Positions 54,101 through 57,744 of a stretch of DNA of 64,000 nt are shown one piece after another. The position numbers and the translations under genes are program-made. The stretch lies in NCBI GenBank assembly GCA_977017645.1, contig OZ360220.1, positions 135,222,001 through 135,286,000 on the forward strand. Reading direction: 5' to 3'. Below the pieces are notes generated by a model. The model did no database searches, had not been told where the DNA came from, and was given only the letters and a program-made list of their open reading frames with translations. Source of the DNA: Torpedo marmorata. Its lineage: Eukaryota. How positions within the stretch are numbered: the stretch's first letter is position 1; each line of letters starts with the position of its first letter.

Positions 54101-55460
54101 AAATTCCAAGCCAATTATTCTTAAAACAATTGTTACTTTTATCCTGCATGCCATTGTTAATGAAAGTGTAAACAAGTGTGCACAGAATTACATAGACTAC
54201 AGAGAATTTACAGCACAATCAAGTCTATTTGACAGCCTCCTTTCCTTACTCTAGCAGTATGTCTTCTAATTTTTTCTCTCTCAAGTACTAAGCCAGCAAT
54301 CACTCCAATGCATCTTTGATCCTGTGCCCCTTTGGAAAGGCCTGAATGTTTTTTTAAATGTAGCTAGAGAGCTGCAGGTAGAAACTGCCCAAGGCAGAGG
54401 CACCAGTTTTTTTTTTAACTTCCTGCCTATTACTTGAGCACAATGGAAAGGGAAATGTGCCCCTGCAGTGCAGGAAGATGACGCAAGTAGAGGTTGAGTG
54501 TGGTTTTATCATCATCACATTGTCATTTCAGATGAAAAGGCTAAAGATGTGGCGAACGCTTTGAAACCACAAGAGATAGCTGCAGCTGACGATTTACCCT
54601 CACCTGACGAAAAGCCATCTCATGGCCCCAAACCCCAGCCACATCCTCCTTCCGATTCTCTTGGCTGTTTGCAGACTGAAGAAAACCACCCAGAAACTGT
54701 TAAACTGTATGTCCACCCAGAGTCGCCAGACAGTTTGAACATTGCTACGAAGCAATCAGATCCATCCACCAACTTCAATGAAGAGATTCTACAATGCAAT
54801 GTGTCTGACTATTCAGCTTGCAAAGGAACCAGTAGCAATGATCTATTGGCTAAAATATTTTCTGCTGAACAAAATGTGGCCACGTTGCCATTTAAACAAA
54901 GAGAATCATTGTTTGAAAGGATAGCCCAGTTGCATCCAAATGATTTTTGGAGCAATTTTCCCATGAAGACATCAGATAATTATTTACAAACCTCTTCTCA
55001 GCATTTGGAGAAAAGCAATACCAGTCTGAAAGCAGATCAAGGGGAAGAAATTGAGATGAATCAATCAAGCACTTTTGTTATGAACGCAGAAGACATCAAA
55101 GAAAATAGATTTGTATTTTGTATTAATTTGACAAATCTCTCTGGTTTCATGACTTCTAACCAACAGCTTGCTTTGGAGTTAAGACCAAGTGAAGTTAGTT
55201 GTCAAGAAATGATAGCTGCTGAATCACCCCCTAGAAAGGATGATAATCTTTGTGTACAATCTTCAATTCCTCCTCCACTGAAGAGCAGCTGCTTGCTGAA
55301 AGAGGATGTAGGTTTGTTACAGTGTCAGTGGATCCCTGCTAGAGACTCCAGGATTGCAGAAGTTATTTCTGCAGTAAACTTCCTTTCATTCATTGATGAC
55401 TTTTCCAGCACTGAAGATAACTCAGAAGACATTGTTTTGTTGAACAAAAGGGAAGTGTAA
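58..55460 (+). CDS. CCDC187: Multi-exon CEP350-family centrosomal coiled-coil gene (probably the paralog CCDC187), 5'-incomplete; about 1,500 codons in the window, ending at TAA 55458-55460
   Basis: 19 AG/GT-bounded exons with consistent phases. CEP350-like blocks occur in collinear order: [166 protein letters not shown]. Strong divergence from canonical CEP350 favours the paralog, but the symbol is inference. Confidence 0.7.
1073..1806 (+). CDS. CEP350/CCDC187-like exon (phase 1-0), coiled-coil
   Basis: aaacAG| acceptor and |gtaagt donor; open frame within ORF 1021-1941; [10 protein letters not shown]...[15 protein letters not shown] motif. Confidence 0.85.
3350..3770. mobile_element. Penelope-like element remnant: two inverted copies of the 3' pseudo-LTR
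   Basis: About 3393-3567 is the reverse complement of about 3595-3770, and both match 43675-43888; flanked by near-TSD attacccaagaaaa (3336) / attacccatgaaaa (3771). Confidence 0.85.
3958..4040 (+). CDS. Candidate short exon (phase 0-2)
   Basis: ctattAG|GAAAAG...GAAAG|gtacag; open; phases bridge the flanking exons; no strong motif. Confidence 0.55.
6435..6711 (+). mobile_element. CR1-type LINE 3' fragment
   Basis: Encodes [14 protein letters not shown]...FKILLARHM (CR1 ORF2 C-terminus); 3' UTR gaaggccctgtactgtgctgt and ttctatgttct tail; similar to 59220-59478. Confidence 0.8.
6722..7437 (+). CDS. CEP350/CCDC187-like exon (phase 2-1)
   Basis: tatacAG| acceptor, GAAG|gtagg donor; [28 protein letters not shown] resembles CEP350 KLDRIEALKATAASLSSRIESEAKKL. 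Confidence 0.75.
8650..9976 (+). mobile_element. Rex1/Babar-type LINE, 5'-truncated, frameshifted RT
   Basis: [61 protein letters not shown]; tail aattctgattctga. Confidence 0.9.
11066..11297. repeat. Tail-to-tail pair of SINE 3' ends (HE1-like) around an AT-rich (TTTAAA)-type tract
   Basis: taattgggtgtaattgggc...tactgtgttgta mirrored by tacagcactgtaacagg...gcccaatttacacccaatta. Confidence 0.55.
12978..13066. repeat. 19-bp minisatellite (tgctgcccagatgttgggg), about 4.7 copies
   Basis: Direct tandem copies visible in the sequence. Confidence 0.95.
14280..14686 (+). mobile_element. Rex/Babar-type LINE 3' fragment
   Basis: Encodes [37 protein letters not shown] followed by a cttgaa tail. Confidence 0.7.
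18920..18996 (+). CDS. Candidate short exon (phase 1-0)
   Basis: atttgacAG|CT...GGAAGG|gtaag; open; phase links 7437 to 29503; no motif support. Confidence 0.45.
19170..19402 (+). repeat. 5' LTR
   Basis: TGTGG...ATCA; direct repeat of 23356-23588. Confidence 0.97.
19425..23112 (+). pseudogene. Gypsy gag-pol polyprotein (single-ORF type), disrupted
   Basis: ATG 19425; premature TGA 19590-19592; zinc knuckles CYFC..H..C and [14 protein letters not shown]; protease LFDTGS; RT YLDN; frameshift near 21635; RNase H VESDAS with an internal deletion near 22033; integrase HHCC and DDE core (VDFKGP, HSDRGS). Confidence 0.93.
23356..23588 (+). repeat. 3' LTR
   Basis: Follows the PPT; followed by TSD CCGTA. 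Confidence 0.97.
23594..23691. mobile_element. About 100-bp Penelope-like terminal fragment with inverted ends
   Basis: Matches both orientations of the PLE 3' end (43800-43888); 18-bp TSD caaacatctccaaccgta at 19152-19169 and 23692-23709. Confidence 0.85.
24600..27560 (+). mobile_element. Old, decayed Penelope-like element interrupted by an L1
   Basis: 27250-27440 aligns by eye with the RT-thumb region of the PLE at 42620-42830 (ccatcgcatctgttctgaaga vs ccgccgcatctgttcccaaga); boundaries approximate. Confidence 0.5.
24993..26919 (-). mobile_element. L1/Tx1-type LINE, 5'-truncated, with A-rich tail
   Basis: ORF2 C-terminal fragments ([29 protein letters not shown]); 15-bp TSD ttgcatttcatcctt at 24978-24992 and 26920-26934; same family as 61124-63860. 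Confidence 0.93.
27755..28060 (+). mobile_element. HE1-like elasmobranch SINE, degenerate
   Basis: B-box-like gggttcaatcc, body tgtctgtatagagtttg.gtgttctccctgtgacc, LINE-like 3' end gaagggcctgtt; related copies near 31970-32220 and 44010-44250. Confidence 0.6.
28395..29105 (+). mobile_element. CR1-type LINE fragments
   Basis: Encodes [19 protein letters not shown]; 3' part tttttcactcagagg...gggcctgtt. Confidence 0.65.
29503..29639 (+). CDS. Candidate coiled-coil exon (phase 0-2)
   Basis: ttttcctttcAG| acceptor, GAG|gtgaa donor; PLADSRP...[17 protein letters not shown], open. Confidence 0.65.
30960..31099 (+). CDS. Candidate exon (phase 2-1)
   Basis: tctctgtccttcaaaccAG| acceptor, AAG|gtacaa donor; open; phase-compatible with neighbours. 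Confidence 0.5.
32993..33168 (+). CDS. CEP350/CCDC187-like exon (phase 1-0); 5' boundary uncertain (alternative in-frame acceptor at 33011)
   Basis: [17 protein letters not shown] resembles CEP350 SFRSLLPSESHRR; CAAG|gtacaa donor. Confidence 0.65.
34042..34232 (+). CDS. Best-conserved CEP350/CCDC187 exon (phase 0-2)
   Basis: tttattccAG| acceptor, |gtgagc donor; [49 protein letters not shown]. Confidence 0.92.
34547..34634 (+). CDS. CEP350/CCDC187-like exon (phase 2-0)
   Basis: ccacAG| acceptor, AAG|gtgagg donor; [29 protein letters not shown] resembles CEP350 HLRDKGEDDKMPPLRKKQRGLLLRLQQEK. Confidence 0.9.
34800..35398 (+). mobile_element. Candidate solo LTR / CpG-rich promoter-like insertion
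   Basis: Begins TGTAAG and ends ..CTTA; NRF1 motifs at 34909 and 34934, CRE TGACGTCA at 34954, YY1 AAGATGGCG at 35059, AATAAA at 35326; no clean TSD. Confidence 0.5.
35744..36160. repeat. Low-complexity tract: ttttgcc(c/t)c repeats followed by C-run repeats
   Basis: Visible tandem units; the overlapping ORFs are low-complexity artefacts. Confidence 0.85.
38154..38300 (+). CDS. CEP350/CCDC187-like exon (phase 0-0)
   Basis: ttttcAG| acceptor, |gtgaga donor; [26 protein letters not shown] resembles CEP350 AEIKRLQEANKAARKERQLILKQQEE. Confidence 0.9.
38643..39133 (+). mobile_element. Rex/Babar-type LINE 3' fragment
   Basis: [33 protein letters not shown] and (GACTT)n tail. Confidence 0.85.
39301..39476 (+). 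CDS. CEP350/CCDC187-like exon (phase 0-2)
   Basis: tcttgtttAG|TTT TCA GGA...GAAAG|gtgagc; ends in [13 protein letters not shown], resembling CEP350 MQKLKKMRSRMDE. Confidence 0.8.
39865..40230 (+). mobile_element. CR1-type LINE 3' fragment
   Basis: [25 protein letters not shown]1-like 3' UTR. Confidence 0.7.
40360..40840. repeat. GC-rich minisatellite of interleaved 29-bp and 27-bp units (cacctgggtgggccccatcc-cttctgccc / -acctgtc), about 17 units
   Basis: Tandem units directly visible. Confidence 0.95.
41098..41270 (+). CDS. CEP350/CCDC187-like exon (phase 2-1)
   Basis: ttaatAG| acceptor, CAG|gtatgt donor; [20 protein letters not shown] resembles CEP350 FLTKREQKLMQRRQHAEELL. Confidence 0.85.
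42614..43888 (+). mobile_element. Penelope-like retroelement (RT thumb plus GIY-YIG endonuclease), 5'-truncated
   Basis: [44 protein letters not shown] followed by a 1-nt frameshift; 14-bp TSD agtaaatgcttcca at 42600-42613 and 43889-43902. Confidence 0.93.
43742..43786 (+). ncRNA. Putative minimal hammerhead ribozyme in the PLE 3' pseudo-LTR
   Basis: catac-t UUGAUGA a GGGC-ucaa-GCCC GAAAC gucg GUUA u-guaug; stem II and stem I pair; C3U core variant; PLEs are known to carry minimal hammerheads. Confidence 0.55.
46673..46797 (+). CDS. Candidate exon (phase 1-0)
   Basis: AG acceptor after a pyrimidine tract, GTG|gtaagc donor; open; phase-compatible. Confidence 0.6.
47170..47690 (+). mobile_element. 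Degenerate CR1-type LINE fragment
   Basis: gcagtgaaggttcaccagattgat...ttcagccagagggtagtgaatct...cctactcctgcttctat tail. Confidence 0.55.
49171..50797 (-). mobile_element. Rex1/Babar-type LINE, 5'-truncated, with long open RT ORF (49408-50745), nested in an older CR1 fragment
   Basis: [57 protein letters not shown]; (CTAAT)n tail at 49171-49205. Confidence 0.92.
51280..51404. mobile_element. hAT (Charlie-like) MITE
   Basis: TIR cagtggttctca...tgagaaccactg; extended internal palindrome; near-8-bp TSD ccctggaa/atctggaa. Confidence 0.85.
51576..51684 (+). CDS. Candidate exon (phase 0-1)
   Basis: tttcttctttatAG| acceptor, GTG|gtaaga donor; open; phase-compatible. Confidence 0.65.
52107..52267 (+). 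CDS. CEP350/CCDC187-like exon (phase 1-0)
   Basis: tttttcataacAG| acceptor, GAG|gtttgt donor; [22 protein letters not shown] resembles CEP350 EQKKRQKERLKAQEASLIKQLE. Confidence 0.85.
52512..52648 (+). CDS. CEP350/CCDC187-like exon (phase 0-2)
   Basis: ttttattgcAG| acceptor; [13 protein letters not shown]...KPQIKTL resembles CEP350 SYDEFIKKTEAEL...KPQIKTL. Confidence 0.88.
53025..53160 (+). mobile_element. Older Penelope-derived 3'-end fragment with decayed hammerhead-like core
   Basis: ttgaagaagggc..gcccaaaacgtt...gacctgctgagttc...gcatctgcaga; similar fragments near 6110-6330, 36950-37350 and 45120-45330. Confidence 0.6.
53239..53312 (+). CDS. Candidate short exon (phase 2-1)
   Basis: ctccacctAG| acceptor, CAAG|gtaggg donor; open; supplies the phase needed between 52648 and 54532. 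Confidence 0.5.
54532..55460 (+). CDS. Open 5' part of the giant CEP350-type exon, ending at the first in-frame TAA
   Basis: gtcatttcAG| acceptor; Ser/Glu/Pro-rich ORF (within 54498-55460). Confidence 0.7.

Positions 55461-57744: not shown

What the first reader, a model, noticed from the sequence alone, without database searches (positions are those of the whole stretch)
54532..57414. CEP350 paralog apparently in the process of losing its CAP-Gly/C-terminal half
Seen: the upstream exons can be chained without stops, but the 2.8-kb exon has in-frame TAA 55458, TAA 55911 and TGA 56247, plus a frameshift near 56435 and a 21-bp triplication. A CAP-Gly fossil (LKFKGYTAFGQGYCGGAELHKSKGKHNG) sits behind the stops, and AATAAA lies at 57406, just past the old donor. 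Known: CEP350 has a CAP-Gly domain in a very large exon, and to my recollection mammalian CCDC187 lacks one. Inference: the paralog was ancestrally a full-length CEP350 duplicate and this lineage truncated it independently and fairly recently, turning coding sequence into 3' UTR. Whole-gene pseudogenisation is the alternative.
Basis: partly seen in the sequence, partly recalled or inferred. Interest (0 to 1): 0.7.

Follow-up and report, generated by a model that had tools for sequence, protein, structure and literature searches.

The report
Electric-ray CCDC187 shedding its tail stepwise
In this electric ray the centrosome gene CCDC187, a duplicate of CEP350, has stop codons and a frameshift in its last large exon while the front three quarters still reads openly, so it likely makes a shortened protein, one more case of the tail loss seen in frog, lizard and mammal gene models.

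Summary
Confirmed. The gene is CCDC187, the CEP350 paralog, of an electric ray; the true CEP350 is on another contig. TAA 55458, TAA 55911, TGA 56247, a +1 shift at ~56439 and the 21-bp triplication are present. A ~98%-identical sister organism shares both TAAs and has its own extra stop, so they are not assembly errors; two further relatives read CAA and GAA. Upstream, 25 exons give 1,939 open codons; four lesions all in the last quarter would have P≈0.004 in a dead gene. Corrections: the CAP-Gly was already degenerate in open-frame rays; three downstream exons survive as broken relics; Narcine's model and spliced contigs of relatives already run past the old donor; AATAAA 57406 is uninformative. 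Likely order: CAP-Gly decay, loss of the FOP-binding tail making the big exon terminal, then nonsense mutations that escape decay. Against: the cut removes an acidic motif kept in 23 of 23 orthologs tested, one short 5' exon was not found, and no RNA of this species was available, so recent death of the whole gene stays open (~20%).

The parts
58..53312 (+). 20 open coding exons of CCDC187 inside the window (58-195, 1073-1806, 3958-4040, 6722-7437, 8147-8255, 18497-18633, 18920-18996, 29503-29639, 30960-31099, 32993-33168, 34042-34232, 34547-34634, 38154-38300, 39301-39476, 41098-41270, 46673-46797, 51576-51684, 52107-52267, 52512-52648, 53239-53312); four more lie up to 44.7 kb upstream of the window
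   Evidence: tblastn with orthologs and junction fitting; open frame and canonical splice sites; junction 53312>54532 is spliced in contigs of relatives B, C, D
34042..38300 (+). Conserved coiled-coil core shared with CEP350 (three exons)
   Evidence: 65% identity to the CEP350 exon on C22; used for the tree
54532..55460 (+). Still-open 5' part of the large exon, ending in TAA 55458-55460 (predicted new stop)
   Evidence: organism A has the same letters, B and C read CAA
55461..57354 (+). Former coding part of the large exon, inferred 3' UTR
   Evidence: 84.5% amino-acid identity to open-frame Narcine; 25 non-synonymous: 4 synonymous differences to organism A among those displayed
55692..55697 (+). 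AATAAA that arose on the same branch as the stops (B, C read G at 55694; Narcine has Lys); candidate new poly(A) signal, 0.25 such sites expected by chance
55731..56072 (+). CCDC187-specific acidic, proline-rich motif (SPVDE...EDFP..P), now behind the first stop; TAA 55911 replaces its conserved Glu
   Evidence: hit in 23 of 23 named orthologs and 0 of 3 CEP350s; B and C read GAA
56247..56249 (+). TGA private to this genome (A, B, C, D read CGA)
56280..56438 (+). Degenerate CAP-Gly remnant
   Evidence: Pfam CAP_GLY 26.4 bits, cut-off 26.5; alignment
56435..56440 (+). +1 frameshift (one extra base, placed at 56439)
   Evidence: organism A shows no deletion here
56712..56781 (+). 21-bp unit in three copies (in-frame duplication of 42 nt)
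57355..57360 (+). Old 5' splice site GTGAGT, intact in sequence but read through in relatives' spliced contigs and in the Narcine model
57406..57411 (+).
60284..60597 (+). Relic 3' exon with intact splice sites, TAA 60341 and a frameshift near 60560-60575; further relics at G000:C2:135302659-135302740 (frameshift, homology breaks off) and 135348818-135348995 (last exon, two frameshifts)

Best explanation
This is the electric-ray CCDC187 gene, a CEP350 paralog whose 3' part is broken while 1,939 upstream codons are open, and it likely still makes a protein of about 1,900 residues that has lost its tail in steps. Step 1 (seen in orthologs): the CAP-Gly domain degenerated in rays while still in frame. 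Step 2 (inferred from Narcine's model, relatives' spliced contigs and broken relic exons): splicing to the exons for the FOP-binding tail was given up and the 2.8-kb exon became the last exon. Step 3 (stops shown, consequence inferred): with no exon junction downstream, a stop in this exon would no longer trigger junction-dependent nonsense-mediated decay, TAA 55458 could fix, and the 1.9 kb behind it now drifts as 3' UTR. The product would keep the N-terminal microtubule/CEP78-binding region and the coiled-coil core, by analogy with CEP350.
For: Stops shared with sister organism A and absent in B and C; further private stops in each sister (56247 here, 55507 in A), as expected for released sequence. 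25 exons and 24 introns intact upstream; P that 3 stops and 1 frameshift all fall in the last quarter of a neutral gene = 0.004, or 0.016 leaving out the first stop. At about 2.1% divergence 5.4 upstream stops would be expected and 0 are seen, while 1.9 are expected behind the first stop and 3 are seen counting it. At 274 upstream sites invariant in 9 outgroups, 20 changed here and 28 in Narcine. The Narcine model ends 9 residues into the intron and has no tail; spliced contigs from 3 organisms in 3 studies run through the donor. Relic exons hold at least 5 lesions in about 570 nt against 4 in about 1,850 nt of the large exon, which fits earlier release. Tail-less models also occur in frogs, squamates and mammals. 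In human CEP350 the C-terminus binds FOP and residues 1-899 alone rescue centriole length control (PMC9623370, passages).
Against: The first stop lies about 90 residues before an acidic motif kept in 23 of 23 named orthologs, mammals and squamates included, so the cut is deeper than any of those. One ancestral 28-codon N-terminal exon was not found; the start would be an internal ATG in a weak context. No amino-acid acceleration behind the stop relative to Narcine (16:37 against 38:73 upstream, Fisher p 0.72). An upstream dN/dS could not be measured: only 4 upstream coding differences to A were displayed. The B/C comparison in 55400-55950 is also 16 N: 4 S, so a high N:S ratio does not by itself show release. 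Old donor and next acceptor are intact, so splicing, and then decay, remains possible. Relic-exon lesions were not checked against reads.
Confidence: 0.65

Rival explanations
1. Two-stage death: the 3' part was released first and the whole gene has since lost function, too recently for upstream lesions to accumulate.
For: Loss of a motif kept in 23 of 23 orthologs; a missing 5' exon; since the split from A only about 1.6 upstream stops are expected, P(0) = 0.21; an intact CEP350 exon elsewhere in the genome could cover the function.
Against: It needs a second, unseen event; all 24 introns are canonical; relatives have spliced contigs.
Confidence: 0.2
2. The stops are bypassed: an internal donor before 55458 splices within the exon or elsewhere, so the main product differs from the genomic reading.
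For: Large exons can hold internal introns (recalled); no RNA of this species was seen.
Against: Relatives' contigs show no internal joint other than the 42-nt repeat skip; all three downstream relic exons found are broken, so no route leads back to the tail.
Confidence: 0.08
3. The whole gene has been a pseudogene since the first lesion.
For: Four lesions in one exon, broken 3' exons.
Against: P = 0.004-0.016 for the placement of the lesions; 5.4 upstream stops expected, none seen.
Confidence: 0.04
4. Assembly errors, or the locus is the true CEP350.
For: Some RefSeq orthologs are named 'CEP350-like'; TGA 56247 is seen only in this assembly.
Against: Independent contigs of organism A carry both TAAs. 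CEP350 with an intact CAP-Gly (69.8 bits, 850 open codons) is on C22. The window groups with named CCDC187s.
Confidence: 0.02

Closest known systems
CCDC187 of rays and sharks (Amblyraja XP_032904526; Narcine bancroftii model P0012)
   Same: Colinear exons; 84.6% upstream and 84.5% post-stop identity to Narcine; sister to Narcine in the tree, SH-aLRT 98; degenerate CAP-Gly.
   Different: Skate and stingray models keep the tail; Narcine keeps the large exon open to 2,516 residues; this genome stops at Narcine residue ~1,891.
CEP350 / CAP350
   Same: N-terminal and coiled-coil homology, large CAP-Gly exon, tail homology in the relic exons, a QSOX gene on the same contig.
   Different: Separate clade and locus (C22); CEP350 keeps the CAP-Gly and, in the named models, the FOP-binding M2/DUF4378 tail (PMC4357431 and PMC9623370 passages); lacks the SPVDE/EDFP motif (0 of 3).
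Mammalian, squamate and frog CCDC187 models
   Same: No tail; mammals and squamates also no CAP-Gly (0 of 3 and 0 of 4 named).
   Different: They keep the acidic motif; frogs keep CAP-Gly (6 of 6). Their loss is old, here it is recent with the relics still legible.
NMD escape by intronic polyadenylation (PMC13187750, abstract and outline only)
   Same: A stop with no junction downstream escapes decay when the transcript ends in the following intron.
   Different: There it is a tissue-level switch in human genes; here it is proposed as the step that let a truncation fix in evolution. Not tested.

Membership tests
CCDC187 (CEP350 paralog) | Groups with named CCDC187 proteins, apart from vertebrate CEP350 | tested here: met
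   Quick IQ-TREE, 108 rows x 205 columns, careful search unfinished, midpoint root, no one-clade test: paralog clade of 48 rows SH-aLRT 96, CEP350 clade of 32 rows 99; names
CCDC187 (CEP350 paralog) | QSOX gene downstream on the same strand (human CCDC187-QSOX2 order is recalled) | tested here: met
   QSOX_Trx1 match at C2:135412735 (+), about 64 kb past the last relic exon; QSOX1 versus QSOX2 not tested
CCDC187 (CEP350 paralog) | Acidic SPVDE...EDFP motif (defined here from orthologs) | tested here: met
   Present in the DNA (81.4 bits) but behind the first stop
CEP350 ortholog | Best CEP350 match in the genome, with intact CAP-Gly | tested here: not met
   That locus is C22:108.83-108.89 Mb
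CAP-Gly domain protein | CAP_GLY above Pfam's cut-off in the translated frame, with conserved Trp and a GKNDG-like motif (motif recalled) | tested here: not met
   26.4 < 26.5 bits, behind three stops, Trp replaced by Cys, frameshift at its end
Unitary pseudogene | Disabling lesions spread along the whole coding length | tested here: not met
   0 in 5,817 nt upstream, 4 in 1,851 nt from the first stop on; one 5' exon not found
Unitary pseudogene | dN/dS near 1 in upstream exons on this branch | tested here: inconclusive
   Only 4 upstream differences displayed; protein relative-rate test shows no excess
Expressed truncated gene | Transcript with the large exon as last exon, and a protein | not testable with these tools
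   No RNA holder listed for this species; only relatives' contigs

The most novel reading that the evidence does not exclude
CCDC187 is a CEP350 duplicate that sheds its C-terminal half again and again across vertebrates (frogs, squamates, mammals, electric rays) by a ratchet: ending the transcript in the intron after the giant exon drops the FOP-binding tail and lifts decay surveillance, after which stops move the end of the protein forward. Electric rays hold both steps in sister lineages, with the discarded exons still legible, which makes the ratchet testable.
Probability: 0.45. Interest if true: 0.55.

Novelty: new variant of a known kind. Interest (0 to 1): 0.38.

Why it matters
Gene shortening by premature stops is a known process, and CCDC187 is little studied (44 papers hold the name, none of the 30 listed has it in the title). 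The case is useful as a graded series inside one order of rays: full tail, tail lost, exon cut. It shows which CEP350 modules a paralog can do without, and it points to an unnamed acidic motif that every other ortholog tested keeps. If the gene proves dead instead, it would be a natural knockout of a gene listed among those changed in human male infertility (PMC8875138, passages).

Tried and rejected
No RNA holder was listed for this stretch: no evidence either way. AATAAA 57406 as the new 3' end: rejected as chance-level; contigs of B and C both end 91 nt past the laid stretch (about 57740 if colinear), but a repeat begins there in the window, so this may be a contig break. Protein relative-rate test: no signal. 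The N-terminal exon was sought by tblastn, ungapped scan, HMM and genome search without a hit; the genome search had no positive control. One tail exon (IQDKV...) was not found either, but the Mobula and Hemitrygon models also skip it. Carcharodon and Callorhinchus models also end before CAP-Gly; not counted as losses, they may be annotation artefacts. L025 (1,543 open codons) is a repeat in front of a dynactin-like CAP-Gly exon, not CEP350. No fold or complex prediction was run: it would not decide anything. Eight paper searches listed no paper on CCDC187 evolution; subscription journals are mostly not covered, and no supplements were read. PMC12123824 passages held nothing on CCDC187. Two look-ups of earlier scan findings returned nothing.
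Full report
Observation. The exon runs from an acceptor at 54532 to a donor after 57354. Its first frame holds TAA 55458, TAA 55911 and TGA 56247; homology to ray orthologs moves to another frame at 56432-56440. A 21-bp unit stands 3.3 times at 56712-56781. The segment behind the third stop matches Pfam CAP_GLY at 26.4 bits, just under the 26.5 cut-off.

Identity. The closest proteins are ray and shark models named CCDC187 or CEP350-like. 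The nearest is Narcine bancroftii, 84.6% identical upstream and sister to the window in a quick tree (SH-aLRT 98), so the genome is an electric ray's. The conserved core exon has one other match in the genome, on C22, where an 850-codon open frame holds a CAP-Gly of 69.8 bits and matches mammalian CEP350. In the tree (108 rows, careful search unfinished, midpoint root) the window falls in a 48-row clade with named CCDC187s (96), apart from a 32-row CEP350 clade (99). A QSOX gene lies about 64 kb downstream on the same strand, matching the human CCDC187-QSOX2 order as I recall it.

Are the lesions real? DNA contigs of organism A, about 98% identical, cover 55458 and 55911 and show no difference there; organisms B and C read CAA and GAA (full table of 23 rows). 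A, B, C and D all read CGA at 56247. B and C lack the extra base at 56439, A shows no deletion there, and D's net length change fits the ancestral frame (20 indel rows were not shown, so A's state is less sure). A has a stop of its own at 55507. At five sites B and C share Narcine's residue where the window matches other rays, so the two TAAs arose on the branch to this genome and A, after the split from B, C and Narcine.

The 5' part. Twenty-five exons, from 44.7 kb upstream of the window to 55460, give 1,939 open codons with 23 GT-AG introns and one GC-AG. If the whole gene were neutral, the chance that three stops and one frameshift all lie in the last quarter is 0.004, or 0.016 without the first stop. 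At a rough 2.1% branch length, 5.4 upstream stops would be expected. This rejects early death but not very recent death: since the split from A only about 1.6 are expected. One ancestral 28-codon exon near the N-terminus was not found, though the exon before it is well kept; the first in-frame ATG then gives 1,918 residues.

The 3' part. Three tail exons survive as relics: 60284-60597 (stop and frameshift), one at C2:135302659 (frameshift, homology breaks off) and the last at C2:135348818 (two frameshifts). These were not checked against reads. Their lesion density, at least 5 in about 570 nt, exceeds the large exon's 4 in about 1,850 nt. The Narcine model keeps the large exon open but ends nine residues into the intron. 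Contigs of B, C and D are spliced at 53312>54532, leave the intron uncovered, and run unbroken through the old donor. Two skate Logan proteins also read into this intron, so a short form may be old; whether they come from RNA is unknown.

CAP-Gly. Among shark and ray models it passes the Pfam cut-off in 2 of 13 (Heptranchias 71.6, Heterodontus 65.8) and 0 of 7. Open-frame Narcine scores 20.4, lower than the window's remnant, and shares the loss of the conserved Trp. The domain was decaying before the stops arrived.

Vertebrate context. Of 22 further paralog models, 12 pass CAP_GLY (coelacanth, caecilian, newt, turtle, crocodile, sparrow, six frogs) and 10 do not (four squamates, three named mammals, three unnamed rows of the mammal clade). 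With a tail profile built here from CEP350, shark and skate tails, frogs score at most 21 bits, squamates and mammals nothing, the full-length models 72-165. These are gene models, not checked against their genomes. All 23 named orthologs tested, mammals and squamates included, keep an acidic SPVDE...EDFP motif that three CEP350s lack (Callorhinchus and several sharks were not included). In the window it lies about 90 residues behind the first stop, and TAA 55911 hits its conserved Glu. This is the strongest result against a harmless truncation.

Selection. Behind the stop, the displayed differences between the window and A are 25 non-synonymous to 4 synonymous, where neutrality gives 73-80% non-synonymous (table incomplete, two codons carry double changes). 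The B/C comparison is similar (16:4), so this stretch is fast-evolving anyway. What differs is the frame: about 4 stops would be expected on Narcine's branch and its model has none. Protein relative rates show no acceleration (Fisher p 0.72).

Mechanism. Shown: lesions, their order on the tree, an open 5' frame, relic exons, read-through in relatives. Inferred: that the large exon is terminal here too, that the stop therefore escapes junction-dependent decay (rule as in the abstract of PMC13187750), and that a protein is made. In human CEP350 the N-terminal domain binds microtubules and the M2 motif recruits FOP (PMC4357431, passages); residues 1-899 bind CEP78 and rescue centriole length (PMC9623370, passages). 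A shortened paralog would keep the former and lose the latter. AATAAA 57406 is chance-level; a derived AATAAA at 55692 is a candidate signal, but 0.25 such sites are expected by chance.

Verdict. A real, recent truncation of CCDC187 and the last of several steps; a new variant of a known kind of gene erosion. Confidence 0.65 for a working shortened gene, 0.2 for recent death. Eight paper searches listed nothing on the evolution of this gene, within a library that lacks most subscription journals. Interest 0.38.

Noticed in passing
window 19593-23109 (+), intron of CCDC187: LTR-retrotransposon gag-pol in two overlapping frames: gag, aspartyl protease, RT (706 codons), then RNase H and integrase (563 codons); GC-rich and probably young.
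   Followed up: partly
window 61722-63869 (+), 49411-50745 (-): LINE-type reverse transcriptase frames (RVT_1 130 and 106 bits).
   Followed up: partly
window 53755-53826: Very high-copy short repeat: thousands of contigs of organism A and dozens to hundreds in B, C, D lay on it.
   Followed up: no
window 57355-57560 and skate Logan proteins P0007/P0008: The intron just past the old donor is still similar between skate and electric ray in translation; it looks like an old LINE tail (recalled) and may belong to an ancestral short 3' end.
   Followed up: partly
G000:C2 about 135193750 (intron after the exon 28.9 kb upstream of the window): GC-AG intron with donor AAG|GCAAGT.
   Followed up: no
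window 18634-18672: The Narcine model extends this exon by about 13 codons; the window has a TAA in that extension, but the donor used by other rays (after 18633) is intact.
   Followed up: partly
G000:C22:108.83-108.89 Mb and 118.30-118.33 Mb: CEP350 and the second QSOX gene are 9.4 Mb apart and on opposite strands, unlike the adjacent order recalled for human.
   Followed up: no
P0015 (Carcharodon), P0021 (Callorhinchus): Both models end before the CAP-Gly; further truncations or annotation gaps.
   Followed up: no
L025 (G000:C1:342223500-342232500): Long tandem repeat, open in several frames, directly before a dynactin-like CAP-Gly exon.
   Followed up: no
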